Assembly: GCA_964016885.1 (NCBI GenBank)
Contig: OZ024744.1
Location: 131,068,001-131,132,000, forward strand
Origin: Eledone cirrhosa
Lineage: Eukaryota
Length of the DNA: 64,000 nucleotides
Direction of reading: 5' to 3'
Shown here in pieces: positions 149 through 63,050 of the stretch (its first letter is position 1; each line of letters starts with the position of its first letter). A program made the position numbers and the translations under genes. Below the pieces are notes generated by a model. The model was given only the letters and a program-made list of their open reading frames with translations, was not told the DNA's origin and ran no database searches.

Positions 149-348
149 AACCCCAACTTAACTTAACCCCAACTTCACTCAAACCCAACTTAACTCAACC
201 CCAACTTAACTTAACCCCAGCTTCACTCAACCCCAACTTAACTTAACCCCAACTTCACTCAACCCCAACTTAACTCAACCCCAACTTAACTTAACCCCAA
301 CTTGACTTAACCCCAACTTAACTTAACCCCAACTTAACTTAACCCCAA
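149..348 (-). repeat. Inverted satellite island 1, subtype A, 200 bp
   Basis: C-rich AACTTAACTTAACCCC units. Left junction GGGGTT|AACCCC, right junction ACCCCAA|AGTCGGGG. Markers CAAACCC and CCAGCTT. Confidence 0.95.
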
Positions 349-3300
349 AGTCGGGGTTAAGTTAAGTTGGGGGTAAGTTAAGTTGGGATTAAGTTAAGTT
401 GCGGTTAAGTTGGGGTTAAGTTAAGTTGGGGTTAAGTTAAGTCGGGGTAAGTTAAGTCGGGGTTAAGTTAAGTTAGGGTTAAGTTAAGTTGGGGTTAAGT
501 TAAAGTTGGGGTTGAGTTAAGTTGCGGTTGAGTTAAATTGGGGTTGAGTTAAGTTGGGGTTGAGTGAAGTTGGTGTTGAGTTAAGTTGGGGTTAAGTTAA
601 GTTGGGGTTAAGTTATGTTGCGGTTAAGTTAAGTTGAGGTTAAGTTAAGTTGGGGTTAACTTAAGTGTGGGTTAAGTTAAGTTGGGGTTAAGTTAAGTTG
701 GGGTTGAGTTAAGTTGGGGTAGAGTTAAATTGGGGTTGAGTTAAGTTAGGGTTGAGTTAAGTTGGGGCTGAGTTAAGTTGGGGCTGAGTTAAGTTGGGGC
801 TGAGTTAAGTTGGGGTTCAGTTAAGTTGGGGTTGAGTTAAGTTGCGCTTAAGTTAAGTTGGGGTTAAGTTAAGTTGGGGTTATGTTAAGTTGGGGTTTAG
901 TTAAGTTGGGGTTCATTTAAGTTGGGGTTAAGTTAAGTTTAGGTTAAGTTGGGGTTAAATTAATTTGGGGTTAAGTTAAGTTGGGGTTAAGTTAAGTTGG
1001 GGTTAATTTAAGTTGGGGTTAATTTAAGTTGGGGTTAAGTTAAGTTGCGGGTAATTTAAGTTGGGGTTAAGTTAAGTTGGTGTTAAGTTAAGTTGGGGTT
1101 AAGTTAAGTTGGGGTTAATTTAAGTTTGGGTTAAGTTAAGTTGGGGCTAATTTAAGTTGGGGCTGAGTTAAGTTGGGGTTAAGTTAAGTTGGGGTTAAGT
1201 TAATTTGGGGTTAAGTTGGGGTTAAGTTAAGTTGGGGTTTATTTAAGTTGGGGTTAAGTTAAGTTGGGGTTCAGTTAAGTTGGGGTTCAGTTAAGTTGGG
1301 GTTAAGTTAAGTTGGGGTTAAGTTAAGTTGGTTAGTTAAGTTGAGGTTAAGTTAAGTTGGGGTTAAGTTAAGTTGGGGTTAAGTTAAGTTGGGGTTAATT
1401 AAAGTTAGGGTTAAGTTAAGTTGGGGTTAAGTTAAGTTGGGGTTATGTTAAGTTGGGGTTAAGTTAGGTTGGGGTTAAGTTAAGTTGTGGCTAAGTTAAG
1501 TTGGGGCTGAGTTAAGTTGGGGTTAAGTTAAGTTGGGGTTAAGTTAAGTTGGGGATAAGTTAAGTTGGGGTTAAGTTAAGTTGTGGTTTATTTAAGTTGG
1601 GGTTAATTTAAGTTGGGGTTCAGTTAAGTTGGGGTTCAGTTAAGTTGGGGTTAAGTTAAGTTGGGGTTTATTTAAGTTGGGGTTAATTTAAGTCGGGGTT
1701 AAGTTAAGTCGGGGTTAAGTTAAGTTAGGGTTAAGTTAAGTTGGGGTTAAGTTAAGTTGGGGTTGTGTTAAGTTGGGGTTGAGTTAAATTGGGGTTGAGT
1801 TAAGTTGGGGTTGAGTTAAGTTGGTGTTGAGTTAAGTTGGGGTTAAGTTAAGTTGGGGTTAATTTAAGTTGCAGTTAAGTTAAGTTGAGGTTAAGTTAAG
1901 GTGGGGTTAAGTTAAGTTGGGGTTAAGTTAAGTTGGGGTATATTAAGTTGGGGTTAAGTTAAGTTGGGGTTAAGTTAAGTTGGGGTTAAGTTAAGTTGGT
2001 GTTAAGTTAAGTTGGGGCTGAGTTAAGTTGGGGCTGAGTTAAGTTGGGGCTGAGTTAAGTTGGGGTTAAGATAAGTTGGGGTTGAGTTAAGTTGGGGTTA
2101 AGTTAAGTTGGGGTTAAGTTAAGTTGGGGTTAAGTTGGGGTTAAGTTAAGTTAGGTTTAAGTTAAGTTGGGTTTAAGTTAAGTTGGGGTTAAGTTAAGTT
2201 GGGGTTAAGTTAAGTTGGGTTTAAGTTAAGTTGGGGTTAAGTTAAGTTGGGGTTAAGTTAAGTCGGGGTTAAGTTAAGTTGGGGTTAAGTTAAGTTGGGG
2301 TTAAGTTAAGTTGGGGTTAAGTTAAGTTGGGGTTAAGTTAAGTTGGTGTTAAGTTAAGTTGAGGTTAAGTTAAGTTGGGGTTAAATTAAGTTGGGGTTAA
2401 GTCAAGTTGGGGTTAAGTTAAGTTGGGGTTAAGTTAAGTTGGGGATATGTTAAGTTGGGGATGAGTTAAGTTGGGGTTAAGTTAAGTTGGGTTTAAGTTA
2501 AGTTGGGGTTAAGTTAAGTTGGGGTTAAGTTAAGTTGGGGTTAAGTTAAGTTGGTTAGTTAAGTTGAGTTTAAGTTAAGTTGGGGTTAATTTAAGTCGGG
2601 TTTAAGTTAAGTTAGGGTTAAGTTGGGGTTGAGTTAAGTTGGGGTTGAGTTAAATTGGGGTTGAGTTAAGTTGGGGTTGAGTTAAGTTGGTGTTGAGTTA
2701 AGTTGGGGTTAAGTTAAGTTGGGGTTAAGTTAAGTTGTGGTTAAGTTAAGTTGAGGTTAAGTTAAGTTGGGGTTAAGTTAAGTTGGGGTTAATTTAAGTT
2801 GGGGCTAAGTTAAGTTGGGGCTAAGTTAAGTTGGGGTTAAGTTAAGTTGGGGTCAACTTAAGTTGGGGTTAAGTTAAGTTGGCGTTAAGTTAAGTTGGGG
2901 TTAAGCTAAGTTGGGGTTAAGTTAAGTTGGTGTTAAGTTAAGTTGGGGCTGAGTTAAGTTGGGGCTGAGTTAAGTTGGGGCTGAGTTAAGTTGGGGTTCA
3001 GTCAAGTTGGGGTTGAGTTAAGTTGCGGTTAAGTTAAGTTGGGGTTAAGTTAAGTTGGGGTTATTTTAAGTTGGGGTTTAGTTAAGTTGGGGTTCATTTA
3101 AGTTGGGGTTAAGTTAAGTTTGGGTTAAGTTGGGGTTAAATTAATTTGGGGTTAAATGAAGTTGGGGTTAAGTTAAGTTGCGGGTAATTTAAGTTGGGGT
3201 TAAGTTAAGTTGGGGTTAAGTTAAGTTGGGGTTAATTTAAGTTTGGGTTAAGTTAAGTTGGGGTTAAGTTAATTTGGGGTTAAGTTAAGTTGGGGTTAAG

Positions 3301-3668
3301 TTAAGTTGGGGTTTATTTAAGTTGGGGTTAAGTTAAGTTGGGGTTCAGTTAAGTTGGGTTTCAGTTAAGTTGGGGTTAAGTTAAGTTGGGGTTAAGATGG
3401 GGTTAAATTAAGTTGGGGTTAAGTTAAGTTGGTTAGTTAAGTTGAGGTTAAGTTAAGTTGGGGTTAATTTAAGTTGGGGTTAAGTTAAGTTGGGCTTAAG
3501 TTAAGTTGGGGTTAATTTAAGTTGGGGTTAAGTTAAGTTGGGGTTCAGTTAAGTTGGGGTTAAGTCAAGTTGGGGTTAAGTTGGGGTTAAATTAAGTTGG
3601 GGTTAAGTTAAGTTGGGGTCAAGTTAAGTTAGGGTTAAGTTAAGTTGGGGTTAAGTTAAGTTGGGGTT

Positions 3669-3868
3669 AACCCCAACTTAACTTAACCCCAACTTCACTC
3701 AAACCCAACTTAACTCAACCCCAACTTAACTTAACCCCAGCTTCACTCAACCCCAACTTAACTTAACCCAAACTTCACTCAACCCCAACTTAACTCAACC
3801 CCAACTTAACTTAACCCCAACTTGACTTAACCCCAACTTAACTTAACCCCAACTTAACTTAACCCCAA
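3669..3868 (-). repeat. Inverted satellite island 2, subtype A, 200 bp
   Basis: Same junctions and markers as island 1, plus a CCCAAAC variant shared with island 4. Confidence 0.95.
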
Positions 3869-6541
3869 AGTCGGGGTTAAGTTAAGTTGGGGGTAAGTTA
3901 AGTTGGGATTAAGTTAAGTTGCGGTTAAGTTGGGGTTAAGTTAAGTTGGGGTTAAGTTAAGTCGGGGTAATTTAAGTCGGGGTTAAGTTAAGTTAGGGTT
4001 AAGTTAAGTTGGGGTTAAGTTAAAGTTGGGGTTGAGTTAAGTTGCGGTTGAGTTAAATTGGGGTTGAGTTAAGTTGGGGTTGAGTGAAGTTGGTGTTGAG
4101 TTAAGTTGGGGTTGAGTTAAGTTGGTGTTGAGTTAAGTTGGGGTTAAGTTAAGTTGGGGTTAAGTTATGTTGCGGTTAATTTAAGTTGAGGTTAAGTTAA
4201 GTTGGGGTTAACTTAAGTGTGGGTTAAGTTCAGTTGGGGTTAAGTTAAGTTGGGGTTGAGTTAAGTTGGGGTTGAGTTAAATTGGGGTTGAGTTAAGTTG
4301 GGGTTGAGTTAAGTTGGTGTTGAGTTAAGTTGGGGTTAAGTTAAGTTGGGGTTAAGTTAAGTTGCGGTTAAGTTAAGTTGAGGTTAAGTTAAGTTGGGGT
4401 TAACTTAAGTGTGGGTTAAGTTAAGTTGGGGTTAAGTTAAGTTGGGGTTAAGTTAAGTTGGTGTTAAGTTAAGTTGGGGCTGAGTTAAGTTGGGGCTGAG
4501 TTAAGTTGGGGCTGAGTTAAGTTGGGGTTCAGTTAAGTTGGGGTTGAGTTAAGTTGCGGTTAAGTTAAGTTGGGGTTAAGTTAAGTTGGGGTTATGTTAA
4601 GTTGGGGTTAAGGTAGGTTGGGGTTAAGTTAAGTTGGGGTTGAGTTAAGTTGGGGTTGAGTTAAATTGGGGTTGAGTTAAGTTGGGGTTGAGTTAAGTTG
4701 GTGTTGAGTTAAGTTGGGGTTAAGTTAAGTTGGGGTTAAGTTAAGTTGGGGTTAACTTAAGTGTGGGTTAAGTTAAGTTAAGGTTAAGTTAAGTTGGGGT
4801 TAAGTTAAGTTGGGGTTAAGTTAAGTTGGGGTTAAGTTAAGTTGGTGTTAAGTTAAGTTGGGGCTGAGTTAAGTTGGGGCTGAGTTAAGTTGGGGCTGAG
4901 TTAAGTTGGGGTTCAGTTAAGTTGGGGTTGAGTTAAGTTGCGGTTAAGTTAAGTTGGGGTTAAGTTAAGTTGGGGTTATGTTAAGTTGGGGTTTAGTTAA
5001 GTTGGGGTTCATTTAAGTTGGGGTTAAGTTAAGTTTAGGTTAAGTTGGGGTTAAATTAATTTGGGGTTAAGTTAAGTTGGGGTTAAGTTAAGTTGGGGTT
5101 AATTTAAGTTGGGGTTAATTTAAGTTGGGGTTAAGTTAAGTTGCGGGTAATTTAAGTTGGGGTTAAGTTAAGTTGGGGTTAAGTTAAGTTGGGGTTAAGT
5201 TAAGTTGGGGTTAAGTTAAGTTTGGGTTAAGTTAAGTTGGGGCTAATTTAAGTTGGGGCTGAGTTAAGTTGGGGTTAAGTTAAGTTGGGGTTAAGTTAAT
5301 TTGGGGTTAAGTTGGGGTTAAGTTAAGTTGGGGTTTATTTAAGTTGGGGTTAAGTTAAGTTGGGGTTCAGTTAAGTTGGGGTTCAGTTAAGTTGGGGTTA
5401 AGTTAAGTTGGGGTTAAGTTAAGTTGGGGTTAAGTTAAGTTGGGGTTAATTTAAGTTGGGGCTAAGTTAAGTTGGGGCTAAGTTAAGTTGGAGCTAAGTT
5501 AAGTTGGGTTTAAGTTAAGGTGGGGTTAAGTTAAGTTGAGGTTAAGTTAAGTTGGGGTTAAGTTAAGTTGGTGTTAAGTTAAGTTGGGGCTGAGTTAAGT
5601 TGGGGCTGAGTTAAGTTGGGGCTGATTTAAGTTGGGGTTGAGTTAAGTTGGGGTTGAGTTAAGTTGCGGTTAAGTTAAGTTGGGGTTAAGTTAAGTTGGG
5701 GTTATGTTAAGTTGGGGTTAAGTTAAGTTGGGGTTAAGTTACGTTGGGGTTGAGTTAAGTTGGGGTTGAGTTAAATTGGGGTTGAGTTAAGTTGGGGTTG
5801 AGTTAAGTTGGTGTTGAGTTAAGTTGGGATTAAGTTAAGTTGGGGTTAAGTTAAGTTGGGGTTAAGTTAAGGTGAGGTTAAGTTAAGTTGGGGTTAACTT
5901 AAGTTGGGGTTAAGTTAAGTTGGGGTTAAGTTAAGTTGGGGTTAAGTTAAGTTGGTGTTAAGTTAAGTTGGGGCTGAGTTAAGTTGGGGCTGAGTTAAGT
6001 TGGGGCTGAGTTAAGTTGGGGTTCAGTTAAGTTGGGGTTGAGTTAAGTTGCGGTTAATTTAAGTTGGGGTTAAGTTAAGTTGGGGTTCATTTAAGTTGGG
6101 GTTAAGTTAAGTTTGGGTTAAGTTGGGGTTAAATTAATTTGGGGTTAAGTTAAGTTGGGGTTAAGTTAAGTTGGGGTTAAGTTAAGTTGGGGTTAATTTA
6201 AGTTGGGGTTAATTTAAGTTGCGGGTAATTTAAGTTGGGGTTAAGTTAAGTTGGGGTTAAGTTAAGTTGGGGTTAAGTTAAGTTGGGGTTAAGTTAAGTT
6301 GGGGTTAAGTTAAGTTGGGGCTGAGTTAAGTTGGGGTTAATTTAAGTTGGGGTTAAGTTAAGTTGGGGTTAAGTTAAGTTGGGGTTTATTTAAGTTGGGG
6401 TTAAGTTAAGTTGGGGTTCAGTTAAGTTGGGGTTCAGTTAAGTTGGGGTTAAGTTAAGTTGGGGTTAAGATGGGGTTAAATTAAGTTGGGGTTAAGTTAA
6501 GTTGGGGTTAAGTTAAGTTGGGGTTAAGTTAAGTTGGGGTT

Positions 6542-6716
6542 AACCCCAACTTAACTTAACCGCAACTTCACTCAACCCCAACGTAACTCAGCCCCAACTT
6601 AACTTAACCCCAACTTCAATCAACCCCAACTTAACTTAACCCCAACTTCACTCAACCCCAACTTCCAACTTGACTTAACCCCAACTTAACTTAGCCCCAA
6701 CTTAACTTAAGCCCAA
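6542..6716 (-). repeat. Inverted satellite island 3, subtype B, 175 bp
   Basis: 25-bp deletion scar ACTTCCAACTTGAC, ends AAGCCCAA|AGTC. Markers CCGCAAC and CAATCAA are shared with island 5. Confidence 0.95.
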
Positions 6717-8956
6717 AGTCGGGGTTAAGTTAAGTTGGCGTTAAGTTAAGTTAGGCTTAACTTAAGTTGGGGTTCAGTTAAGTTGGGGGTAAGTTAAGTT
6801 GGGGGTAAGTTAAGTTGGGGTTAAGTTAAGTTGCGGTTAAGTTGGGGTTAAGTTAAGTTAGGGTTAAGTTAAGTTGGGGTTGAGTTAAGTTGGGGTTAAT
6901 TAAGTGGTGGTTATGTTAAGTTGGGGTTAAGTTAAGTTGGGGTTAATTTAAATTGGGGTTAAGTTAACTTTGTGGTTAAGTTAAGTTGGGGTTAAGTTAA
7001 GTTGGGGTAAAGTTGGGGTTGAGTTAAGTTGGGGTTGAGTGAAGTTGGGGTTAAGTTAAGTTGGGGTTAAGTTAAGTTGGGGTTAAGATAAGTCGGGGTT
7101 AAATTAAGTTGTGGTTGAGTTAAGTTGGGGTTAATTTAAGTTGGGGCTAAGTTAATTTGTGGTTAAGTTAAGTTGGGGTTAAGTTAAGTTGGGGTTAAGT
7201 TAAGTCGGGGTAAGTTAAGTCGGGGTTAAGTTAAGTTAGGGTTAAGTTAAGTTGGGGTTAAGTTAAGTTGTGGTTGAGTTAAGTTGGGGTTGAGTTAAAT
7301 TGGGGTTGAGTTAAGTTGGGGTTGAGTTAAGTTGGTGTTGAGTTAAGTTGGGGTTAAGTTAAGTTGGGGTTGAGTTAAGTTGGGGTTAAGTTAAGTTGGG
7401 GTTAAGTTAAGTTGGGGTTAAGTTGGGGTTAAGTTAAGTTAGGTTTAAGTTAAGTTGGGTTTAAGTTAAGTTGGGGTTAAGTTAAGTTGGGGTTAAGTTA
7501 AGTTGGGTTTAAGTTAAGTTGGGGTTAAGTTAAGTTGGGGTTAAGTTAAGTCGGGGTTAAGTTAAGTTGGGGTTAAGTTAAGTTGGGGTTAAGTTAAGTT
7601 GGGGTTAAGTTAAGTTGGGGTTAAGTTAAGTTGGTGTTAAGTTAAGTTGAGGTTAAGTTAAGTTGGGGTTAAATTAAGTTGGGGTTAAGTTAAGTTGGGG
7701 TTAAGTTAAGTTGGGGTTAAGTTAAGTTGGGGATATGTTAAGTTGGGGATGAGTTAAGTTGGGGTTAAGTTAAGTTGGGTTTAAGTTAAGTTGGGGTTAA
7801 GTTAAGTTGGGGTTAAGTTAAGTTGGGGTTAAGTTAAGTTGGTTAGTTAAGTTGAGTTTAAGTTAAGTTGGGGTTAATTTAAGTCGGGTTTAAGTTAAGT
7901 TAGGGTTAAGCTGGGGTTGAGTTAAGTTGGGGTTGAGTTAAATTGGGGTTGAGTTAAGTTGGGGTTGAGTTAAGTTGGTGTTGAGTTAAGTTGGGGTTAA
8001 GTTAAGTTGGGGTTAAGTTAAGTTGTGGTTAAGTTAAGTTGAGGTTAAGTTAAGTTGGGGTTAAGTTAAGTTGGGGTTAATTTAAGTTGGGGCTAAGTTA
8101 AGTTGGGGCTAAGTTAAGTTGGGGTTAAGTTAAGTTGGGGTCAACTTAAGTTGGGGTTAAGTTAAGTTGGCGTTAAGTTAAGTTGGGGTTAAGCTAAGTT
8201 GGGGTTAAGTTAAGTTGGTGTTAAGTTAAGTTGGGGCTGAGTTAAGTTGGGGCTGAGTTAAGTTGGGGCTGAGTTAAGTTGGGGTTCAGTCAAGTTGGGG
8301 TTGAGTTAAGTTGCGGTTAAGTTAAGTTGGGGTTAAGTTAAGTTGGGGTTATTTTAAGTTGGGGTTTAGTTAAGTTGGGGTTCATTTAAGTTGGGGTTAA
8401 GTTAAGTTTGGGTTAAGTTGGGGTTAAATTAATTTGGGGTTAAATGAAGTTGGGGTTAAGTTAAGTTGCGGGTAATTTAAGTTGGGGTTAAGTTAAGTTG
8501 GGGTTAAGTTAAGTTGGGGTTAATTTAAGTTTGGGTTAAGTTAAGTTGGGGTTAAGTTAATTTGGGGTTAAGTTAAGTTGGGGTTAAGTTAAGTTGGGGT
8601 TTATTTAAGTTGGGGTTAAGTTAAGTTGGGGTTCAGTTAAGTTGGGTTTCAGTTAAGTTGGGGTTAAGTTAAGTTGGGGTTAAGATGGGGTTAAATTAAG
8701 TTGGGGTTAAGTTAAGTTGGTTAGTTAAGTTGAGGTTAAGTTAAGTTGGGGTTAATTTAAGTTGGGGTTAAGTTAAGTTGGGCTTAAGTTAAGTTGGGGT
8801 TAATTTAAGTTGGGGTTAAGTTAAGTTGGGGTTCAGTTAAGTTGGGGTTAAGTCAAGTTGGGGTTAAGTTGGGGTTAAATTAAGTTGGGGTTAAGTTAAG
8901 TTGGGGTCAAGTTAAGTTAGGGTTAAGTTAAGTTGGGGTTAAGTTAAGTTGGGGTT

Positions 8957-9156
8957 AACCCCAACTTAACTTAACCCCAACTTCACTCAAACCCAACTTA
9001 ACTCAACCCCAACTTAACTTAACCCCAGCTTCACTCAACCCCAACTTAACTTAACCCAAACTTCACTCAACCCCAACTTAACTCAACCCCAACTTAACTT
9101 AACCCCAACTTGACTTAACCCCAACTTAACTTAACCCCAACTTAACTTAACCCCAA
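8957..9156 (-). repeat. Inverted satellite island 4, subtype A, 200 bp
   Basis: Appears identical to island 2. Confidence 0.95.
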
Positions 9157-11874
9157 AGTCGGGGTTAAGTTAAGTTGGGGGTAAGTTAAGTTGGGATTAA
9201 GTTAAGTTGCGGTTAAGTTGGGGTTAAGTTAAGTTGGGGTTAAGTTAAGTCGGGGTAATTTAAGTCGGGGTTAAGTTAAGTTAGGGTTAAGTTAAGTTGG
9301 GGTTAAGTTAAAGTTGGGGTTGAGTTAAGTTGCGGTTGAGTTAAATTGGGGTTGAGTTAAGTTGGGGTTGAGTGAAGTTGGTGTTGAGTTAAGTTGGGGT
9401 TGAGTTAAGTTGGTGTTGAGTTAAGTTGGGGTTAAGTTAAGTTGGGGTTAAGTTATGTTGCGGTTAATTTAAGTTGAGGTTAAGTTAAGTTGGGGTTAAC
9501 TTAAGTGTGGGTTAAGTTCAGTTGGGGTTAAGTTAAGTTGGGGTTGAGTTAAGTTGGGGTTGAGTTAAATTGGGGTTGAGTTAAGTTGGGGTTGAGTTAA
9601 GTTGGTGTTGAGTTAAGTTGGGGTTAAGTTAAGTTGGGGTTAAGTTAAGTTGCGGTTAAGTTAAGTTGAGGTTAAGTTAAGTTGGGGTTAACTTAAGTGT
9701 GGGTTAAGTTAAGTTGGGGTTAAGTTAAGTTGGGGTTAAGTTAAGTTGGTGTTAAGTTAAGTTGGGGCTGAGTTAAGTTGGGGCTGAGTTAAGTTGGGGC
9801 TGAGTTAAGTTGGGGTTCAGTTAAGTTGGGGTTGAGTTAAGTTGCGGTTAAGTTAAGTTGGGGTTAAGTTAAGTTGGGGTTATGTTAAGTTGGGGTTAAG
9901 GTAGGTTGGGGTTAAGTTAAGTTGGGGTTGAGTTAAGTTGGGGTTGAGTTAAATTGGGGTTGAGTTAAGTTGGGGTTGAGTTAAGTTGGTGTTGAGTTAA
10001 GTTGGGGTTAAGTTAAGTTGGGGTTAAGTTAAGTTGGGGTTAACTTAAGTGTGGGTTAAGTTAAGTTAAGGTTAAGTTAAGTTGGGGTTAAGTTAAGTTG
10101 GGGTTAAGTTAAGTTGGGGTTAAGTTAAGTTGGTGTTAAGTTAAGTTGGGGCTGAGTTAAGTTGGGGCTGAGTTAAGTTGGGGCTGAGTTAAGTTGGGGT
10201 TCAGTTAAGTTGAGGTTGAGTTAAGTTGCGGTTAAGTTAAGTTGGGGTTAAGTTAAGTTGGGGTTATGTTAAGTTGGGGTTTAGTTAAGTTGGGGTTCAT
10301 TTAAGTTGGGGTTAAGTTAAGTTTAGGTTAAGTTGGGGTTAAATTAATTTGGGGTTAAGTTAAGTTGGGGTTAAGTTAAGTTGGGGTTAATTTAAGTTGG
10401 GGTTAATTTAAGTTGGGGTTAAGTTAAGTTGCGGGTAATTTAAGTTGGGGTTAAGTTAAGTTGGGGTTAAGTTAAGTTGGGGTTAAGTTAAGTTGGGGTT
10501 AAGTTAAGTTTGGGTTAAGTTAAGTTGGGGCTAATTTAAGTTGGGGCTGAGTTAAGTTGGGGTTAAGTTAAGTTGGGGTTAAGTTAATTTGGGGTTAAGT
10601 TGGGGTTAAGTTAAGTTGGGGTTTATTTAAGTTGGGGTTAAGTTAAGTTGGGGTTCAGTTAAGTTGGGGTTCAGTTAAGTTGGGGTTAAGTTAAGTTGGG
10701 GTTAAGTTAAGTTGGTTAGTTAAGTTGAGGTTAAGTTAAGTTGGGGTTAAGTTAAGTTGGGGTTAAGTTAAGTTGGGGTTAATTTAAGTTGGGGCTAAGT
10801 TAAGTTGGGGCTAAGTTAAGTTGGAGCTAAGTTAAGTTGGGTTTAAGTTAAGGTGGGGTTAAGTTAAGTTGAGGTTAAGTTAAGTTGGGGTTAAGTTAAG
10901 TTGGTGTTAAGTTAAGTTGGGGCTGAGTTAAGTTGGGGCTGAGTTAAGTTGGGGCTGATTTAAGTTGGGGTTGAGTTAAGTTGGGGTTGAGTTAAGTTGC
11001 GGTTAAGTTAAGTTGGGGTTAAGTTAAGTTGGGGTTATGTTAAGTTGGGGTTAAGTTAAGTTGGGGTTAAGTTAAGTTGGGGTTGAGTTAAGTTGGGGTT
11101 GAGTTAAATTGGGGTTGAGTTAAGTTGGGGTTGAGTTAAGTTGGTGTTGAGTTAAGTTGGGATTAAGTTAAGTTGGGGTTAAGTTAAGTTGCGGTTAAGT
11201 TAAGGTGAGGTTAAGTTAAGTTGGGGTTAACTTAAGTTGGGGTTAAGTTAAGTTGGGGTTAAGTTAAGTTGGGGTTAAGTTAAGTTGGTGTTAAGTTAAG
11301 TTGGGGCTGAGTTAAGTTGGGGCTGAGTTAAGTTGGGGCTGAGTTAAGTTGGGGTTCAGTTAAGTTGGGGTTGAGTTAAGTTGCGGTTAATTTAAGTTGG
11401 GGTTAAGTTAAGTTGGGGTTCATTTAAGTTGGGGTTAAGTTAAGTTTGGGTTAAGTTGGGGTTAAATTAATTTGGGGTTAAGTTAATTTGGGGTTAAGTT
11501 AAGTTGGGGTTAAGTTAAGTTGGGGTTAATTTAAGTTGGGGTTAATTTAAGTTGCGGGTAATTTAAGTTGGGGTTAAGTTAAGTTGGGGTTAAGTTAAGT
11601 TGGGGTTAAGTTAAGTTGGGGTTAAGTTAAGTTGGGGTTAAGTTAAGTTGGGGCTGAGTTAAGTTGGGGTTAATTTAAGTTGGGGTTAAGTTAAGTTGGG
11701 GTTAAGTTAAGTTGGGGTTTATTTAAGTTGGGGTTAAGTTAAGTTGGGGTTCAGTTAAGTTGGGGTTCAGTTAAGTTGGGGTTAAGTTAAGTTGGGGTTA
11801 AGATGGGGTTAAATTAAGTTGGGGTTAAGTTAAGTTGGGGTTAAGTTAAGTTGGGGTTAAGTTAAGTTGGGGTT

Positions 11875-53379: not shown

Positions 53380-53531
53380 AACCCCAACTTAACTTAACCC
53401 CAACTTCACTCAACCCCAACGTAACTCAACCCCAACTTAACTTAACCCCAACTTCACTCAACCCCAACTTAACTTAACCCCAACTTCACTCAACCCCAAC
53501 TTATGTCAACCCCAACTTAACTTAAGCCCAA
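53380..53531 (-). repeat. Inverted satellite island 28, subtype C minus 3 distal monomers, 152 bp
   Basis: Copy of island 24. Confidence 0.93.
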
Positions 53532-54978
53532 AGTCGGGGTTAAGTTAAGTTGGCGTTATGTTAAGTCAGGCTTAACTTAAGTTGGGGTTCAGTTAAGTTG
53601 GGGGTAAGTTAAGTTGGGGGTAAGTTAAGTTGGGGTTAAGTTAAGTTGCGGTTAGGTTGGGGTTAAGTTAAGTTAGGGTTAAGTTAAGTTGGGGTTGAGT
53701 TAAGTTGGGGTTAATTAAGTGGTGGTTATGTTAAGTTGGGGTTAATTTAAATTGGGGTTAAGTTAACATTGTGGTTAAGTTAAGTTGGGGTTAAGTTAAG
53801 TTGGGGTTAAGTTGGGGTTGAGTTAAGTTGGGGTTGAGTGAAGTTGGGGTTAAGTTAAGTTGGGGTAAAGTTAAGTTGGGGTTAAGTTAAGTCGGGGTTA
53901 AGTTAAGTTGTGGTTGAGTTAAGTTGGGGTTAATTTAAGTTGGGGCTAAGTTAATTTGTGGTTAAGTTAAGTTGGGGTTAAGTTAAGTTGGGGTTGAGTT
54001 AAGTTGGGGTTGAGTTAATTTGGGGTTAAGTTAAGTTGGGGTTAAGTTAAGTTGGGTTTAAGTTAAGTTGGGGTTAAATTAAGTTGGGGTTAAATTAAGT
54101 TGGGGTTAAGTTAAGTTGGGGGTAAGTTAAGTTGGGGGCAAGTTAAGTTGGGGCTAAGTTAAGTTGGGGTTAAATTAAGTTGGGGTTACGTTAAGTTGGT
54201 GTTAAGTTAAGTTGGGGTTAATTTAAGTTGGGGTTAATTAAGTTGGGGTTAATTTAAGTTGGGGTTAAGTTAAGTTGGGGTTAATTTAAGTTGGGGTTGA
54301 GTTAAGTTGGGGTTAAGTTAAGTTGGGGTTATATTAAGTTGGGGTTAAGTTAAGTTGGGGTTAAGTTAAGTTGGGGTTAAGTTAAGTTGGGGTTTATTTA
54401 AGTTGGGGTTAAGTTAAGTTGGGGTTCAGTTAAGTTGGGGTTCAGTTAAGTTGGGGTTAAGTTAAGTTGGGGTTAAGATGGGGTTCAATTAAGTTGGGGT
54501 TAAGTTAAGTTGGGGTCAAGTTAAGTTGGGGTTAAGTTAAGTTGGGGTTAAGTTAAGTCGGGGTTAAGTTAAGTCGGGTTTAAGTTAAGTTAGGGTTCAG
54601 TTAAGTTGGGGTTAAGTTAAGTTGGGGTTGAGTTAAGTTGGGGTTGAGTTAAATTGGGGTTGAGTTAAGTTGGGGTTGAGTTAAGTTGGTGTTGAGTTAA
54701 GTTGGGGTTAAGTTAAGTTGGGGTTAAGTTAAGTTGGGGTTAATTTAAGTTGGGGTTAATTTAAGTTGGGGTTAATTTAAGTTGGGGTTAAGTTAAGTTG
54801 GGGTTAAGTTAAGTTGGGGTTAAGTTAAGTTGGGTTTAAGTTAAGTTGGGGTTAAGTTAAGTTGGGGTCAAGTTAAGTTGGGGTTAAGTTAAGTTGGTTA
54901 GTTAAGTCGAGTTTAAGTTAAGTTGGGGTTAATTTAAGTTGGGGTTAAGTTAAGTTGGGGTTAAGTTAAGTTGGGGTT

Positions 54979-55178
54979 AACCCCAACTTAACTTAACCCC
55001 AACTTCACTCAACCCCAACTTCACTCAACCCCAACTTAACTTAACCCCAACTTCACTCAACCCCAACTTAACTTAACCCCAACTTCACTCAACCCCAACT
55101 TAAGTCAACCCCAACTTAACTTAACCCCAACTTGACTTAACCCCAACTTAAATTAGCCCCAACTTAACTTAAGCCCAA
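54979..55178 (-). repeat. Inverted satellite island 29, subtype C, 200 bp
   Basis: Copy of island 25. Confidence 0.95.
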
Positions 55179-56342
55179 AGTCGGGGTTAAGTTAAGTTGG
55201 CGTTATGTTAAGTCAGGCTTAACTTAAGTTGGGGTTCAGTTAAGTTGGGGGTAAGTTAAGTTGGGGGTAAGTTAAGTTGGGGTTAAGTTAAGTTGCGGTT
55301 AAGTTGGGGTTAAGTTAAGTTAGGGTTAAGTTAAGTTGGGGTTGAGTTAAGTTGGGGTTAATTAAGTGGTGGTTATGTTAAGTTGGGGTTAATTTAAATT
55401 GGGGTTAAGTTAACATTGTGGTTAAGTTAAGTTGGGGTTAAGTTAAGTTGGGGTTAAGTTGGGGTTGAGTTAAGTTGGGGTAAAGTTAAGTTGGGGTTAA
55501 GTTAAGTTGGGGTTAAGTTAAGTTGGGGTTGAGTTAAGTTGGGGTTGAGTTAATTTGGGGTTAAGTTAAGTTGGGGTTAAGTTAAGTTGGGTTTAAGTTA
55601 AGTTGGGGTTAAATTAAGTTGGGGTTAAATTAAGTTGGGGTTAAGTTAAGTTGGGGGTAAGTTAAGTTGGGGGCAAGTTAAGTTGGGGCTAAGTTAAGTT
55701 GGGGTTAAATTAAGTTGGGGTTACGTTAAGTTGGTGTTAAGTTAAGTTGGGGTTAATTTAAGTTGGGGTTAATTAAGTTGGGGTTAATTTAAGTTGGGGT
55801 TAAGTTAAGTTGGGGTTAATTTAAGTTGGGGTTGAGTTAAGTTGGGGTTAAGTTAAGTTGGGGTTATATTAAGTTGGGGTTAGGTTAAGTTGGGGTTAAG
55901 TTAAGTTGGGGTTAAGTTAAGTTGGGGTTTATTTAAGTTGGGGTTAAGTTAAGTTGGGGTTAATTTAAGTTGGGGTTGAGTTAAGTTGGTGTTGAGTTAA
56001 GTTGCGGTTATGTTAAGTTGGGGTTAAGTTAAGTTGGGGTTAAGTTAAGTTGGGGCTGAGTTAAGTTGGGGCTGAGTTAAGTTGGGGTTAAGTTAAGTTG
56101 GGGTTAAGTTAAGTCGGGGTTAAGTTAAGTTGGGGTTAAGTTAAGTTGGGGTTAAGTTAAGTTGGGGTTAAGTTAAGTTGGGGTTAAGTTAAGTTGGGTT
56201 TAAGTTAAGTTGGGGTTAAGTTAAGATGGGGTCAAGTTAAGTTGGGGTTAAGTTAAGTTGGTTAGTTAAGTTGAGTTTAAGTTAAGTTGGGGTTAATTTA
56301 TGTTGGGGTTAAGTTAAGTTGGGGTTAAGTTAAGTTGGGGTT

Positions 56343-56542
56343 AACCCCAACTTAACTTAACCCCAACTTCACTCAACCCCAACGTAACTCAACCCCAACT
56401 TAACTTAACCCCAACTTCACTCAACCCCAACTTAACTTAACCCCAACTTCACTCAACCCCAACTTAAGTCAACCCCAACTTAACTTAACCCCAACTTGAC
56501 TTAACCCCAACTTAACTTAGCACGAACTTAACTTAAGCCCAA
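56343..56542 (-). repeat. Inverted satellite island 30, subtype C (TTAGCACG variant), 200 bp
   Basis: Copy of island 26. Confidence 0.95.
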
Positions 56543-57827
56543 AGTCGGGGTTAAGTTAAGTTGGCGTTAAGTTAAGTTAGGCTTAACTTAAGTTGGGGTT
56601 CAGTTAAGTTGGGGGTAAGTTAAGTTGGGGGTAAGTTAAGTTGGGGTTAAGTTAAGTTGCGTTTAAGTTGGGGTTAAGTTAAGTTAGGGTTAAGTTAAGT
56701 TGGGATTAAGTTAAGTTGGGGATAATTTAAGTTGGGGTTAAGTTGGGGTTAATTTAACTTGGGGCTAAGTTAATTTGTGGTTAAGTTAAGTTGGGGTTAA
56801 GTTAAGTTGGGGTTAAGTTAAGTTGGGGTTGAGTTAAGTTGGGGTTGAGTTAATTTGGGGTTAATTTAAGTTGGGGTTAAGTTAAGTTGGGTTTAAGTTA
56901 AGTTGGGGTTAAATTAAGTTGGGGTTAAATTAAGTTGGGGTTAAGTTAAGTTGGGGGTAAGTTAAGTTGGGGGCAAGTTAAGTTGGGGCTAAGTTAAGTT
57001 GGGGTTAAATTAAGTTGGGGTTACGTTAAGTTGGTGTTAAGTTAAGTTGGGGTTAATTTAAGTTGGGGTTAATTAAGTTGGGGTTAAGTTAAGTTGGGGT
57101 TAAGTTAAGTTGGGGTTTATTTAAGTTGGGGTTAAGTTAAGTTGGGGTTCAGTTAAGTTGGGGTTCAGTTAAGTTGGGGTTAAGTTAAGTTGGGGTTAAG
57201 ATGGGGTTAAATTAAGTTGGGGTTAAGTTAAGTTGGGGTTAAGTTAAGTTGGGGTTAAGTTAAGTTGGGGTTAAGTTAAGTCGGGGTTAAGTTAAGTCGG
57301 GGTTAAGTTAAGTTAGGGTTCAGTTAAGTTGGGGTTAAGTTAAGTTGGGGTTGAGTTAAGTTGGGGTTGAGTTAAATTGGGGTTGAGTTAAGTTGGGGTT
57401 GAGTTAAGTTGGTGTTGAGTTAAGTTGCGGTTATGTTAAGTTGGGGTAAGTTAAGTTGGGGTTAAGTTAAGTTGGGGCTAAGTTAAGTTGGGGCTGAGTT
57501 AAGTTGGGGTTAAGTTAAGTTGGGGTTAAGTTAAGTCGGGGTTAAGTTAAGTTGGGGTTAAGTTAAGTTGGGGTTAAGTTAAGTTGGGGTTAATTAAGTT
57601 GGGGTTAAGTTAAGTTGGGGTTAAGTTTAGTTGGGTTTAAGTTAAGTTGGGGTTAAGTTAAGTTGGGGTCAAGTTAATTTGGGGTTAAGTTAAGTTGGTT
57701 AGTTAAGTTGAGTTTAAGTTAAGTTGGGGTTAATTTATGTTGGGGTTAAGTTAAGTTGGGGTTAAGTTAAGTTGGGGTTAAGTTAAGTTGGGGTTAAGTT
57801 AAGTTGGGGTTAAGTTAAGTTGGGGTT

Positions 57828-58027
57828 AACCCCAACTTAACTTAACCCCAACGTAACTCAACCCCAACGTAACTCAACCCCAACTTAACTTAACCCCAAC
57901 TTCACTCAACCCCAACTTAACTTAACCCCAACTTCACTCAACCCCAACTTAAGTCAACCCCAACTTAACTTAACCCCAACTTGACTTAACCCCAACTTAA
58001 CTTAGCACCAACTTAACTTAAGCCCAA
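57828..58027 (-). repeat. Inverted satellite island 31, subtype C (TTAGCACC variant), 200 bp
   Basis: Two adjacent AACGTAACTC units and the TTAGCACC marker. Confidence 0.95.
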
Positions 58028-59222
58028 AGTCGGGGTTAAGTTAATTTGGCGTTAAGTTAAGTTAGGTTTAACTTAAGTTGGGGTTCAGTTAAGTTGGGGG
58101 TAAGTTAAGTTGGGGGTAAGTTAAGTTGTGGTTAAGTTAAGTTGCGTTTAAGTTGGGGTTAAGTTAAGTTAGGGTTAAGTTAAGTTGGGGTTAAGTTAAG
58201 TTGGGGTTAATTTAAATTGGGGTTAAGTTAACTTTGTGGTTAAGTTGGGGTTAATTTAAGTTGGGGCTAAGTTAATTTGTGGTTAAGTTAAGTTGGGGTT
58301 AAGTTAAGTTGGGGTTAAGTTAAGTTGGGGTTGAGTTAAGTTGGGGTTGAGTTAATTTGGGGTTAATTTAAGTTGGGGTTAAGTTAAGTTGGGGCTAAGT
58401 TAAGTTGGGGCTAAGTTAAGTTGGGGCTAAGTTAAGTTGGGGTTAGGTTAAGTCGGGGTTAAGTTAAGTCGGGGTTAAGTTAAGTTGGCGTTAAGTTAAG
58501 TTGGGGTTAATTTAAGTTGGGGTTAAGTTAAGTTGGGGTTAATTTAAGTTGGGGTTAAGTTAAGTTGCGGGTAATTTAAGTTGGGGTTAAGTTAAGTTGG
58601 GGTTAAGTTAAGTTGGGGTTATGTTAAGTTGGTTAGTTAAGTTGAGTTTAAGTTAAGTTGGGGTTAATTTATGTTGGGGTTAAGTTAAGTTGGGGTTAAG
58701 TTAAGTTGGGGTTAATTTAAGTTGGGGTTAAGTTAAGTTGCGGGTAATTTAAGTTGGGGTTAAGTTAAGTTGGGGTTAAGTTAAGTTGGGGTTATGTTAA
58801 GTTGGGGTTAAGTTAAGTTGGGGTTAAGTTAAGTTGGGGCTAAGTTAAGTTGGGGCTGAGTTAAGTTGGGGTTAAGTTAAGTTGGGGTTAAGTTAAGTTG
58901 GGGATAAGTTAAGTTGGGGTTAAGTTAAGTTGGGGTTTATTTAAGTTGGGGTTAATTTAAGTTGGGGTTCAGTTAAGTTGGGGTTAAGTTAAGTTGGGGT
59001 TAAGTTAAGTTGGGGTTAAGTTAAGTTGGGGTTAAGTTAAGTTGGGTTTAAGTTAAGTTGGGGTTAAGTTAAGTTGGGGTCAAGTTAAGTTGGGGTTAAG
59101 TTAAGTTGGTTAGTTAATTTGAGTTTAAGTTAAGTTGGGGTTAATTTTTGTTGGGGTTAAGTTAAGTTGGGGTTAAGTTAAGTTGGGGTTAAGTTAAGTT
59201 GGGGTTAAGTTAAGTTGGGGTT

Positions 59223-59422
59223 AACCCCAACTTAACTTAACCCCAACTTCACTCAACCCCAACGTAACTCAACCCCAACTTAACTTAACCCCAACTTCAC
59301 TCAACCCCAACTTAACTTAACCCCAACTTCACTCAACCCCAACTTAAGTCAACCCCAACTTAACTTAACCCCAACTTGACTTAACCCCAACTTAACTTAG
59401 CACCAACTTAACTTAAGCCCAA
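59223..59422 (-). repeat. Inverted satellite island 32, subtype C (TTAGCACC variant), 200 bp
   Basis: Closest to island 6, including its flanks. Confidence 0.95.
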
Positions 59423-62400
59423 AGTCGGGGTTAAGTTAAGTTGGCGTTAAGTTAAGTTAGGCTTAACTTAAGTTGGGGTTCAGTTAAGTTGGGGGTAAGT
59501 TAAGTTGGGGGTAAGTTAAGTTGGGGTTAAGTTAAGTTGCGTTTAAGTTGGGGTTAAGTTAAGTTAGGGTTAAGTTAAGTTGGGGTTAATTTAAATTGGG
59601 GTTAAGTTAACTTTGTGGTTAAGTTAAGTTGGGGTTAAGTTAAGTTGGGGTTAAGTTGGGGTTAACTTAAGTTGGGGCTAAGTTAATTTGTGGTTAAGTT
59701 AAGTTGGGGTTAAGTTAAGTTGGGGTTAAGTTAAGTTGGGGTTGAGTTAAGTTGGGGTTGAGTTAATTAGGGGTTAAATTAAGTTGGGGTTAAGTTAAGT
59801 TGGGGGTAAGTTAAGTTGGGGCTAAGTTAAGTTGGGGTTAAATTAAGTTGGGGTTACGTTAAGTTGGTGTTAAGTTAAGTTGGGGTTAATTTAAGTTGGG
59901 GTTAATTAAGTTGGGGTTAAGTTAAGTTGGGGTTAAGTTAAGTTGGGGTTTATTTAAGTTGGGGTTAAGTTAAGTTGGGGTTCAGTTAAGTTGGGGTTCA
60001 GTTAAGTTGGGGTTAATTTAAGTTTGGGTTAAGATGGGGTTAAATTAAGTTGGGGTTAAGTTAAGTTTGGGTTAAGTTAAGTTGGGGTTAAGTTAAGTTG
60101 GGGTTAAGTTAAGTCGGGGTTAAGTTAAGTCGGGGTTAAGTTAAGTTAGGGTTCAGTTAAGTTGGGGTTAAGTTAAGTTGGGGTTGAGTTAAGTTGGGGT
60201 TGAGTTAAATTGGGGTTGAGTTAAGTTGGGGTTGAGTTAAGTTGGTGTTGACTTAAGTTGGGGTTAAGTTAAGTTGGGGTTAAGTTAAGTTGCAGTTAAG
60301 TTAAGTTGAGGTTAAGTTAAGGTGCGGTTAAGTTAAGTTGGGGTTAAGTTAAGTTGGGGCTAAGTTAAGTTGGGGCTAATTTAAGTTGGGGCTAAGTTAC
60401 GTTGGGGTTAGGTTAAGTTGGGGTTAAGTTAAGTCGGGGTTAAGTTAAGTTGGCGTTAAGTTAAGTTGGGGTTAATTTAAGTTGGGGTTAAGTTAAGTTG
60501 GGGTTAAGTTAAGTTGGGGTTAAGTTAAGTTGGGGTTATGTTAAGTTGGGGTTAAGTTAAGTTGGGGTTAAGTTAAGTTGGGGCTAAGTTAAGTTGGGGC
60601 TGAGTTAAGTTGGGGTTAAGTTAAGTTGGGGTTAAGTTAAGTTTGGGATAAGTTAAGTTGGGGTTAAGTTAAGTTGGGGTTTATTTAAGTTGGGGTTAAT
60701 TTAAGTTGGGGTTCAGTTAAGTTGGGGTTCAGTTAAGTTGGGGTTAAGTTAAGTTGGGGTTTATTTAAGTTGGGGTTAATTTAAGTCGGGGTTAAGTTAA
60801 GTCGGGGTTCAGTTAATATAGGGTTAAGTTAAGTTGGGGTTAAGTTAAGTTGGGGTTGTGTTAAGTTGGGGTTGAGTTAAATTGGGGTTGAGTTAAGTTG
60901 GGGTTGAGTTAAGTTGGTGTTCAGTTAAGTTGGGGTTAAGTTAAGTTGGGGTTAATTTAAGTTGCAGTTAAGTTAAGTTGAGGTTAAGTTAAGGTGGGGT
61001 TAAGTTAAGTTGGGGTTAGTTTAAGTTGGGGCTAAGCTAAGTTGGGGCTAAGTTAAGTTGGGGCTAAGTTAAGTTGGGGTTAAGTTAAGTTGGGGTATAT
61101 TAAGTTGGGGTTAAGTTAAGTTGGGGTTAAGTTAAGTTGGGGTTAAGTTAAGTTGGGGCTGAGTTAAGTTGGGGCTGAGTTAAGTTGGGGCTGAGTTAAG
61201 TTGGGGTTAAGTTAAGTTGGGGTATATTAAGTTGGGGTTAAGTTAAGTTGGGGTTAAGTTAAGTTGGGGTTAAGTTAAGTTGGGGCTGAGTTAAGTTGGG
61301 GCTTAGTTAAGTTGGGGCTGAGTTAAGTTGGGGTTAAGATAAGTTGGGGTTGAGTTAAGTTGGGTTTAAGTTAAGTTGGGGTTAATTTAAGTTGGGGATA
61401 AGTTAAGTCGGGGTTAAGTTAAGTTGGTGTTAAGTTAAGTTGGGGTTAAGTTAAGTTGGGGTTAAGTTAAGTTGGGGTTAAGTTAAGTTGGGGTTAAGTT
61501 AAGTTGAGGTTAAGTTAAGTTGGGGTTAAATTAAGTTGGGGTTAAGTTAAGTTGGGGTTAAGTTAAGTTGGGGTTAAGTTAAGTTGGAGATATGTTAAGT
61601 TGGGGATGAGTTAAATTGGGGTTAAGTTAAGTTGGGTTTAAGTTAAGTTGGGGTTAAGTTAAGTTGGTTAGTTAAGTTGAGTTTAAGTTAAGTTGGGGTT
61701 AATTTAAATCGGGGTTAAGTTAAGTTAGGGTTAAGTTAAGTTGGGGTTGAGTTAAGTTGGGGTTGAGTTAAATTGGGGTTGAGTTAAGTTGGGGTTGAGT
61801 TAAGTTGGTGTTGAGTTAAGTTGGGGTTAAGTTAAGTTGGGGTTAAGTTAAGTTGTGGTTAAGTTAAGTTGAGGTTAAGTTAAGTTGGGGTTAAGTTAAG
61901 TTGGGGTTAATTTAAGTTGGGGCTAAGTTAAGTTGGGGCTAAGTTAAGTTGGGGTTAAGTTAAGTTGGGGTCAACTTAAGTTGGGGTTAAGTTAAGTTGG
62001 CGTTAAGTTAAGTTGGGGTTAAGTTAAGTTGGGGTTAAGTTAAGTTGGTGTTAAGTTAAGTTGGGGCTGAGTTAAGTTGGGGCTGAGTTAAGTTGGGGCT
62101 GAGTTAAGTTGGGGTTCAGTCAAGTTGGGGTTAAGTTAAGTTGGGGTTATTTTAAGTTGGGGTTTAGTTAAGTTGGGGTTCATTTAAGTTGGGGTTAAGT
62201 TAAGTTTGGGTTAAGTTGGGGTTAAATTAATTTGGGGTTAAATGAAGTTGGGGTTAAGTTAAGTTGGGGTTAAGTTAAGTTGGGGTTAATTTAAGTTGGG
62301 GTTAAGTTAAGTTGCGGGTAATTTAAGTTGGGGTTAAGTTAAGTTGGGGTTAAGTTAAGTTGGGGTTAAGTTAAGTTTGGGTTAAGTTAAGTTGGGGTTA

Positions 62401-62850
62401 AGTTAATTTGGGGTTAAGTTGGGGTTAAGTTAAGTTGGGGTTTATTTAAGTTGGGGTTAAGTTAAGTTGGGGTTCAGTTAAGTTGGGGTTCAGTTAAGTT
62501 GGGGTTAAGTTAAGCTGGGGTTAAGATGGGGTTAAATTAAGTTGGGGTTAAGTTAAGTTGGTTAGTTAAGTTGAGGTTAAGTTAAGTTGGGCTTAAGTTA
62601 AGTTGGGGTTAATTTAAGTTGGGGTTAAGTTAAGTTGGGGTTAAGTTAAGTTGGGGTTAAGTCAAGTTGGGGTTAAGTTAAGTTGGGGTTGAGTTAAGTT
62701 GGGGTTGAGTGAAGTTGGGGTTAAGTTAAGTTGGGGTTAAGTTAAGTTGGGGTTAAGTTAAGTTGGGGTCAAGTTAAGTTAGGGTTAAGTTAAGTTGGGG
62801 TTAAGTTAAGTTGGCGTTAAGTTAATTTGTGGTTAAGTTAAGTTGGGGTT

Positions 62851-63050
62851 AACCCCAACTTAACTTAACCCCATTTTCACTCAAACCCAACTTAACTCAA
62901 CCCCAACTTAACTTAACCCCAGCTTCACTCAACCCCAACTTAACTTAACCCCAACTTCACTCAACCCCAACTTAACTCAACCCCAACTTAACTTAACCCC
63001 AACTTGACTTAACCCCAACTTAACTTAACCCCAACTTAACTTAACCCCAA
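62851..63050 (-). repeat. Inverted satellite island 33, subtype A, 200 bp
   Basis: CAAACCC and CCAGCTT markers, ACCCCAA|AGTC end. The upstream TAATTTGTGG is the same as for island 1. Confidence 0.95.

What the first reader, a model, noticed from the sequence alone, without database searches (positions are those of the whole stretch)
149..63050. 33 micro-inversion islands with invariant breakpoints punctuate a telomere-like satellite
Seen: the G-rich array flips strand 33 times, for 200 bp (16 islands), 175 bp (13), 152 bp (3) or 127 bp (1), and then flips back. Every island starts at GGGGTT|AACCC and ends at CCCAA|AG(T/C)CGGG. Start-to-start spacing is irregular, from 399 to 4316 bp (about 2 kb on average). 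Established: satellite arrays are usually head-to-tail with rare orientation switches, and long palindromes tend to be unstable. Inference: one founding double template-switch event was amplified with the array. Internal deletions always left both junctions intact, so the island behaves like a conserved module. It may be a structural element (cruciform, replication or recombination site, hairpin-RNA source) or a neutral passenger.
Basis: partly seen in the sequence, partly recalled or inferred. Interest (0 to 1): 0.75.

Follow-up and report, generated by a model that had tools for sequence, protein, structure and literature searches.

The report
Copied micro-inversion riding a satellite array
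The 33 back-to-front patches in this 16-letter repeat are copies of one old inversion, likely a DNA-copying U-turn, that was likely multiplied as a passenger to over 800 copies; they mutate as fast as the DNA around them, so their fixed ends likely reflect how repeats are copied rather than a function.

Summary
Each island plus its spacer is one variable higher-order unit. The same two junctions occur at least 832 times. Over 3 Mb of the same array has no junction match.

Tests of function were negative. In 433 islands, substitutions run at 1.03/kb against 0.94/kb in the flanks (p 0.58), and the junctions are not protected. Lengths span 56-488 bp. The perfect palindrome is broken in 63 of 63 islands of one block. 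A neutral simulation reproduces the spacing. In-register exchange cannot move a junction, and two rare events did move one.

An independent three-copy island family on C18 mirrors its flank and turns at TTAA, supporting a template-switch origin. Residual signals: about twofold more monomer indels beside the palindrome (not significant on replication), and one exchange inside an island.

Closest known: the conserved inversion sites of Tribolium satellites. The scan reported this array earlier from other windows with the same reading. Verdict: real, probably neutral, modest interest.

The parts
1..64000 (+). 16-bp satellite GGGGTTAAGTTAAGTT, G-rich on +; part of an array at about C28:127.0-135.3 Mb; island plus spacer form one variable higher-order unit
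122..175 (.). example left (head-to-head) junction region, centred on TT|AA at 148|149; perfect arms are 27 bp in 116 of 177 islands of block C
343..356 (.). example right (tail-to-tail) junction CCCCAA|AG|TCGGGG: inverted arms around a 2-nt spacer
149..348 (-). island, 200 bp, lineage A
3669..3868 (-). island, 200 bp, lineage A
6542..6716 (-). island, 175 bp
8957..9156 (-). island, 200 bp, lineage A; copy of 3669 in a 5.3-kb tandem duplication (3004 aligned bases, 4 mismatches)
11875..12049 (-). island, 175 bp; copy of 6542 in the same duplication
13451..13650 (-). island, 200 bp; right junction AGCCGGGG
17767..17941 (-). island, 175 bp
18992..19166 (-). island, 175 bp
20139..20313 (-). island, 175 bp
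22464..22638 (-). island, 175 bp
24006..24180 (-). island, 175 bp
25073..25247 (-). island, 175 bp
26570..26744 (-). island, 175 bp
28687..28861 (-). island, 175 bp
29866..30040 (-). island, 175 bp
32083..32257 (-). island, 175 bp
34872..35046 (-). island, 175 bp; substitution 5 bp from the palindrome centre
37341..37540 (-). island, 200 bp; same substitution near the centre
38333..38532 (-). island, 200 bp; followed by the shortest spacer (199 bp)
38732..38883 (-). island, 152 bp (48-bp loss, type 1)
39825..40024 (-). island, 200 bp
42243..42369 (-). island, 127 bp (175 type minus 48 bp)
44484..44683 (-). island, 200 bp
46336..46487 (-). island, 152 bp (48-bp loss, type 2)
47935..48134 (-). 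island, 200 bp
49299..49498 (-). island, 200 bp; the one on which reads were laid
51512..51711 (-). island, 200 bp; copy of 44484 in a 7-kb tandem duplication
53380..53531 (-). island, 152 bp; copy of 46336
54979..55178 (-). island, 200 bp; copy of 47935
56343..56542 (-). island, 200 bp; copy of 49299
57828..58027 (-). island, 200 bp
59223..59422 (-). island, 200 bp
62851..63050 (-). island, 200 bp, lineage A

Best explanation
The islands are copies of one old inverted insertion in a 16-bp satellite, likely made by a switch-and-return of the replicating strand that turned at the monomer's self-complementary TTAA, and likely multiplied as a neutral passenger of a variable 2-3 kb higher-order repeat. 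Step 1, origin (inferred): the polymerase reversed onto the opposite strand, copied roughly 25-30 monomers backwards and returned, leaving a zero-spacer palindrome at one end and a 2-nt-spacer fold at the other. Step 2, spread (shown as pattern; process inferred): tandem duplications of kilobases to tens of kilobases copied island and spacer together. Step 3, why the ends stay put (inference from geometry): in-register gains and losses need same-strand homology at both ends, so they keep or remove whole junction pairs and only change island or spacer length. Only rare out-of-register events move a junction (two such events seen). Step 4, side effects (one case shown; otherwise a hint): islands give opposite-strand homology that is sometimes used for exchange with forward monomers.
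For: Single origin: all lineages from 124.6 to 135.0 Mb share both junctions and the downstream marker string. Higher-order unit: spacers begin and end with the same marker monomers; spacers 24 and 28 are both 1447 bp with the same monomer string. No sequence constraint: 67 substitutions in 65,286 island bases against 107 in 113,570 flank bases (p 0.58); junction +-8 bp 8 in 9,400 against 166 in 169,456 (p 0.86); palindrome arms 19 in 15,699 (p 0.35) (block C alone gave 0.61 against 0.65 per kb). No length constraint: 56-488 bp. Symmetry dispensable: perfect arms of only 2-11 bp in 63 of 63 islands of block D. Islands dispensable: no + strand junction match is listed between 124.69 and 130.247 Mb, though the satellite runs from 127.0 Mb, and about 113 kb sampled there has no strand switch. 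Spacing: neutral simulation gives island CV 0.41-0.49 at 1500 events, with islands the most regular of nine markers in 64-100% of runs. Origin at TTAA: it is the only self-complementary 4- or 6-mer in the monomer. An unrelated three-copy island of about 144 bp on C18 has both junctions at TTAA and mirrors two rare marker monomers of its upstream flank; two large-inversion junctions on C28 also sit at TTAA.
Against: Indels end within four monomers upstream of the left junction more often than the roughly 3% expected: 8 of 60 (block B), 14 of 82 (C), 9 of 111 (E), but 1 of 39 in D where symmetry is broken. After matching for the length of pure runs this falls to 14 against 6.0 expected (p 0.002; 6 against 3.7, p 0.16, in the closest pairs) and 6 against 3.2 (p 0.10) in the replication block. 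So the island may not be wholly inert. For the C28 founder, fold-back copying of the adjacent flank rests on one post hoc mirror pair (5G,5G at monomers 5-6 on both arms; background 1.3%). Anchored alignments of present-day islands to their flanks were mostly no better than random. Neutral base divergence does not exclude selection on having an inverted tract at all. The simulation's parameters are my choice and it assumes the homology rule. No chromatin, RNA or population data were available.
Confidence: 0.75

Rival explanations
1. Self-promoting island: the palindromic left junction forms a hairpin or cruciform that stalls or breaks replication forks. Repair by in-register exchange then concentrates beside it and tends to duplicate island-bearing units, so the island helps its own spread without benefit to the host.
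For: Excess of indel ends next to the left junction in blocks B, C and E but not in D, where symmetry is broken. The upstream flank differs between lineages up to the last monomer, while the downstream flank is shared. On C18 the upstream arm is three monomers shorter than its mirror. The single strand folds strongly (expected for any inverted satellite).
Against: The effect is about twofold after controls and not significant in the closest pairs or on replication. Block D also lacks the pure run, so it is a confounded control, and it was amplified without a perfect palindrome. Palindrome arms mutate at background rate. Central deletions are rare: one event in 2 copies, plus a 1-bp loss, among 433 islands. 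Island-free array also reached megabases.
Confidence: 0.15
2. Selected structural element: regularly spaced inverted tracts make hairpins, cruciforms or double-stranded RNA that organise (peri)centromeric chromatin, as proposed for Tribolium macro-dyads.
For: About a thousand copies in a multi-megabase satellite block; spacing more regular than Poisson; precedent hypothesis in PMC13081366.
Against: No constraint on sequence, length or symmetry. Over 3 Mb of the array lacks junction matches, and 100 kb on C18 holds only three islands, of another origin. Spacing is matched by a forward marker and by neutral runs. No junction match is listed on contigs C1-C27; later contigs could not be seen in the listing.
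Confidence: 0.07
3. Sequencing or assembly artefact (fold-back chimeras or collapsed and re-expanded repeats).
For: Palindromic junctions are a known artefact type (own knowledge). The left junction is not bridged by the tool's 31-base rule, and the RAD-seq raw reads were ambiguous.
Against: Junctions are paired and carry heritable variants that sort into lineages and blocks. Short-read contigs span the right junction and cross the left one exactly. There is no N in the four blocks analysed.
Confidence: 0.03

Closest known systems
Conserved inversion sites in Tribolium madens and T. freemani satellite macro-dyad symmetries (PMC13081366, PMC12581902; search passages read)
   Same: A few inversion-site types present in thousands of near-identical copies inside multi-megabase satellite blocks; variable numbers of monomers between fixed points; predicted hairpins; the authors leave function versus spread mechanism open.
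   Different: Here the monomer is 16 bp and the inverted tract is short and lopsided (0.06-0.5 kb against about 2 kb). In Tribolium the subarrays are kilobases long, tend to symmetry and occur on all chromosomes. This junction family was seen on one scaffold, and rate tests here show no constraint.
Human HSat3B5 (chr9) and beta-satellite arrays with over 200 inversion breakpoints (bioRxiv 10.1101/2021.07.12.452052; passages read)
   Same: Many strand switches within one satellite array, so frequent orientation changes are already known.
   Different: The passages read give counts only and do not say whether the breakpoints are copies of one event; the satellite sequences are unrelated.
Four-point template-switch model, types 3-2-1-4 and 1-4-3-2 (PMC5453318; passages read); fold-back inverted duplication (PMC3907307; abstract only)
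   Same: One switch-and-return leaves an inverted copy next to its source; the C18 family fits this directly.
   Different: Those are single-copy events in unique sequence. Here the product sits in a satellite, is 0.1-0.5 kb long and was amplified about a thousandfold.

Membership tests
Tribolium-type macro-dyad symmetry | few inversion-site types, highly conserved, in hundreds to thousands of copies | tested here: met
   at least 832 right junctions; 430 and 431 of 433 junctions in place
Tribolium-type macro-dyad symmetry | multi-kilobase direct and inverted subarrays tending to equal length | tested here: not met
   islands 56-488 bp against mean spacing of 1.9-3.5 kb
Tribolium-type macro-dyad symmetry | present in the major satellite blocks of all chromosomes | tested here: not met
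   no junction match listed on C1-C27; all listed matches on C28; listing is cut, so later contigs are unseen
Tribolium-type macro-dyad symmetry | (peri)centromeric location | not testable with these tools
   no CENP-A or cytological data
Short template-switch inverted duplication (four-point model) | inverted tract is a copy of the adjacent flank | tested here: inconclusive
   met for the C18 family (two mirrored marker monomers); for the C28 founder only one mirrored pair, and flank alignments mostly not above random
Short template-switch inverted duplication (four-point model) | switch points at microhomology or short inverted repeats | tested here: met
   left junction at TTAA, the only self-complementary word; right junction has inverted arms around 2 nt; four other independent junctions at TTAA
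Satellite higher-order repeat with a passenger marker | marker and flanks share variants and are duplicated together | tested here: met
Satellite higher-order repeat with a passenger marker | marker diverges at the same rate as its flanks | tested here: met
   1.03 against 0.94 substitutions per kb, p 0.58
Telomeric repeat array | consists of the organism's telomere motif at a chromosome end | tested here: not met
   consensus lacks TTAGGG, which is abundant elsewhere in the genome (that it is the telomere motif here is an assumption); non-satellite DNA lies between the array and the scaffold end
Hairpin-RNA or small-RNA source | transcribed and processed to small RNA | not tested

The most novel reading that the evidence does not exclude
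The island is a selfish structural element with no coding part: a palindrome in a satellite that raises slippage and recombination right beside itself, seeds larger inversions, and so helps drive the expansion of the repeat units that carry it.
Probability: 0.15. Interest if true: 0.6.

Novelty: new variant of a known kind. Interest (0 to 1): 0.3.

Why it matters
Recent satellite papers read highly conserved inversion sites as a sign of possible function, and one states that macro-dyads were documented only in Tribolium (PMC13081366, passages). This array is a related case in a 3-Gb genome where the inference can be tested. About a thousand fixed junctions come with neutral divergence, free length, lost symmetry and megabases without any. 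It gives a simple null model and test set (flank-matched substitution rate, forward-marker spacing, island-free domains) for such claims. The islands are also convenient lineage markers for dating array expansion. If the excess of indels beside the palindrome is real, the contrast between perfect and symmetry-broken blocks is a natural experiment on palindrome instability in satellite DNA.

Tried and rejected
Island spacing as evidence of function: exact monomer-pair markers looked less regular (CV 0.74-1.56 against 0.45), but mutation-tolerant markers were as regular in each block and neutral runs gave the same ordering; rejected.

A strong hotspot at the left junction: the first estimates (13 of 43 and 11 of 53 indels) were inflated by cheap gap extension. 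Rescoring and run-length matching cut it to about twofold. The large 'island' gaps were alignment artefacts and were not used. Edges above the distance cut-offs and spacers over 330 monomers were left out of these counts.

In-place inversion or inverted triplication: re-inverting the island does not restore the register (sequence), and the upstream flank is not a forward copy of the island.

Other species: run X1 (organism A, share 0.17) holds the monomer, but no listed contig crosses a junction; contigs cannot show absence, so no conclusion. RAD-seq raw reads X5 and X6 show opposite-strand joints but cannot be assigned to this junction.

Literature: four monomer strings gave 0 papers; an octopus-plus-satellite search listed nothing on this repeat; one paper id was not held. 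No supplements were read, and a satellite catalogue in a supplement could list this repeat.

Host not identified here. Folding energy is uninformative, because any inverted satellite tract folds so.
Full report
Observation. The window is one satellite with the 16-bp monomer GGGGTTAAGTTAAGTT; 3411 of 3713 parsed forward pieces are 16 bp and 1321 are exact consensus. It flips strand 33 times at the stated places and lengths; spacing is 399-4316 bp, mean 1959, CV 0.43. The left junction is a zero-spacer palindrome centred on TT|AA. The right junction is CCCCAA-AG-TCGGGG. The longer junction k-mers occur 30 and 26 times, so positions are fixed but bases are not.

Is it real? A contig from run X3 bridges the right junction (depth 950). 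A 40-base contig crosses the left junction exactly (depth 3095), though short of the tool's bridging rule. X2-X4 are one sample and may be the assembly's source; the raw RAD-seq reads were ambiguous. Junction variants sort into lineages and duplicated blocks, which chimeric reads would not do.

Setting. The window is G000:C28:131,068,001-131,132,000 in a 3.0-Gb genome; C28 is 136.5 Mb. Samples place the satellite from about 127.0 to 135.3 Mb, with a 92-kb reverse block at 124.6 Mb. A degenerate right-junction pattern has 805 + 27 matches. This is a lower bound: it misses a CCCTAAGTC variant seen. The sorted listings show no + strand match between 124.69 and 130.247 Mb and none on C1-C27; later contigs are not visible. 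About 113 kb sampled in 127.0-130.247 Mb has no strand switch.

Anatomy. In monomer code, every spacer starts and most end with the same marker strings, so island plus spacer is one higher-order unit with internal gains and losses. Forward markers have similar copy numbers: 32 copies of one 13-bp monomer against 33 islands. Recent tandem duplications are visible in the window (5.3 kb and 7 kb). I analysed four contiguous blocks: B 130.20-130.47 Mb (94 islands), C 130.868-131.21 (177), D 131.40-131.62 (63) and E 134.65-134.89 (99). All share the two junctions. Lengths run from 56 to 488 bp; the longest types carry markers that the window's 200-bp types have lost.

Tests for constraint. Between closest-relative units, substitutions are 1.03/kb in islands, 1.13 upstream and 0.76 downstream (islands against both flanks p 0.58). 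Junction +-8 bp gives 0.85 against 0.98 (p 0.86), and the palindrome arms 1.21 (p 0.35). Perfect arms are 27 bp in 116 of 177 islands in C but 2-11 bp in all 63 in D, which was amplified all the same. Of 433 islands, 430 keep the left junction and 431 the right. The exceptions are two 56-bp islands with a new right junction (the only two such matches genome-wide), two copies with the palindrome centre deleted, and one 1-bp loss. Spacing CV is 0.63, 0.45, 0.53 and 0.53 in B, C, D and E. The 13-bp marker gives 0.45, 0.54 and 0.44 in B-D. A neutral model of same-strand duplications and deletions gives island CV 0.41-0.49 at an intermediate event number and makes islands the most regular of nine markers in 64-100% of runs, because short events cannot copy or remove them.

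Why the ends stay fixed (inference). Exchange between monomers needs the same orientation at both ends. Forward-forward events keep or remove whole islands; reverse-reverse events change island length or fuse two islands. Neither creates a new switch point. Invariant junctions are therefore the default outcome, not evidence of selection.

Origin. TTAA is the only self-complementary 4- or 6-mer in the monomer. A search for a head-to-head junction at the second TTAA found five sites. Three are on C18: a separate island of about 144 bp, both ends perfect palindromes at TTAA, whose inverted copy mirrors two rare double-variant monomers of the upstream flank. Two are ends of larger inverted blocks on C28. 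The C18 family looks like a young example of the inverted-repeat-creating template switch of PMC5453318 (passages). For the C28 founder the evidence is weaker: one mirrored marker pair across the right junction (background 1.3%, post hoc), and anchored alignments mostly at random level.

Evidence that the island is not wholly inert. Indel ends cluster within four monomers upstream of the left junction in B, C and E (8 of 60, 14 of 82, 9 of 111; about 3% expected) but not in D (1 of 39). Matching for pure-run length leaves 14 against 6.0 (p 0.002), 6 against 3.7 in the closest pairs (p 0.16) and 6 against 3.2 in the planned replication (p 0.10). This is a hint only. Islands also exchange with ordinary monomers: two islands in D and one at 132.6 Mb carry forward-flank strings. 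At C28:132,857,198 a right junction leads through nine island monomers straight into a long reverse block with no left junction; an earlier scan note pointed me to this case.

Comparison. The nearest system is the set of conserved inversion sites in Tribolium macro-dyad satellites (PMC13081366, PMC12581902; passages). It is organised like them in having few, amplified inversion sites. It is not a member: the inverted tracts are short and lopsided, and were seen on one scaffold. Human HSat3B5 and beta-satellite arrays hold over 200 breakpoints (preprint passages). The monomer strings were in no held paper. Earlier scan notes on other windows of this array reached the same reading; they are not independent support. 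One note calls the host a likely octopus, which I did not test.

Verdict. Real, single origin, most likely a neutral passenger (0.75); a self-promoting hotspot is possible (0.15); a selected structural role is unlikely (0.07). A new variant of a known kind; interest 0.3.

Noticed in passing
G000:C18:10,129,109; 10,132,209; 10,188,785 (L161, L162, L167): Independent three-copy island family of about 144 bp in the same satellite, with both junctions perfect palindromes at TTAA and the island mirroring upstream marker monomers.
   Followed up: yes
G000:C2:209.19-209.61 Mb (L087-L089): Composite satellite of about 520 bp: roughly 270 bp of unique sequence plus a tract of 16-bp monomers (GCGG variant), near the midpoint of a 416-Mb scaffold; a loose end in run X1 shows the same joint.
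   Followed up: no
G000:C28:131,964,570 and 132,859,230 (L170, L172): Ends of larger inverted blocks, both at the second TTAA of the monomer; a reverse-oriented stretch with islands runs through the samples from 132.8 to 133.31 Mb.
   Followed up: partly
G000:C28:132,857,198 (L172:7198): Right junction whose island side runs into ordinary reverse monomers with no left junction: an exchange inside an island bounding a 2-kb forward segment.
   Followed up: partly
G000:C28:130,418,253 and 130,422,462; 134,760,577 and 134,787,577: Rare junction-moving events: 56-bp islands with a new right junction; islands with the palindrome centre deleted.
   Followed up: yes
G000:C28:124.60-124.69 Mb (L021-L031) and 132.2-132.75 Mb (L047-L051, L148, L149, L177): The detached reverse block shares island types and inserted AT-rich satellite tracts with the 132.2-132.75 Mb region; likely a transposed or mis-scaffolded piece (a 200-N gap lies at one end).
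   Followed up: no
G000:C28:124,500,001-124,503,000 (L003): Reverse-transcriptase-like coding sequence, by eye resembling an RTE-type LINE (label recalled, not tested).
   Followed up: no
G000:C1:208.56-208.59 and 217.83-217.87 Mb: Interstitial clusters of TTAGGG tracts deep inside a scaffold.
   Followed up: no
L001, L002, L004, L091, L098, L099, L140, L141: Several other unrelated tandem repeats flank the array and both ends of C28; neither end sample shows a telomere tract.
   Followed up: no
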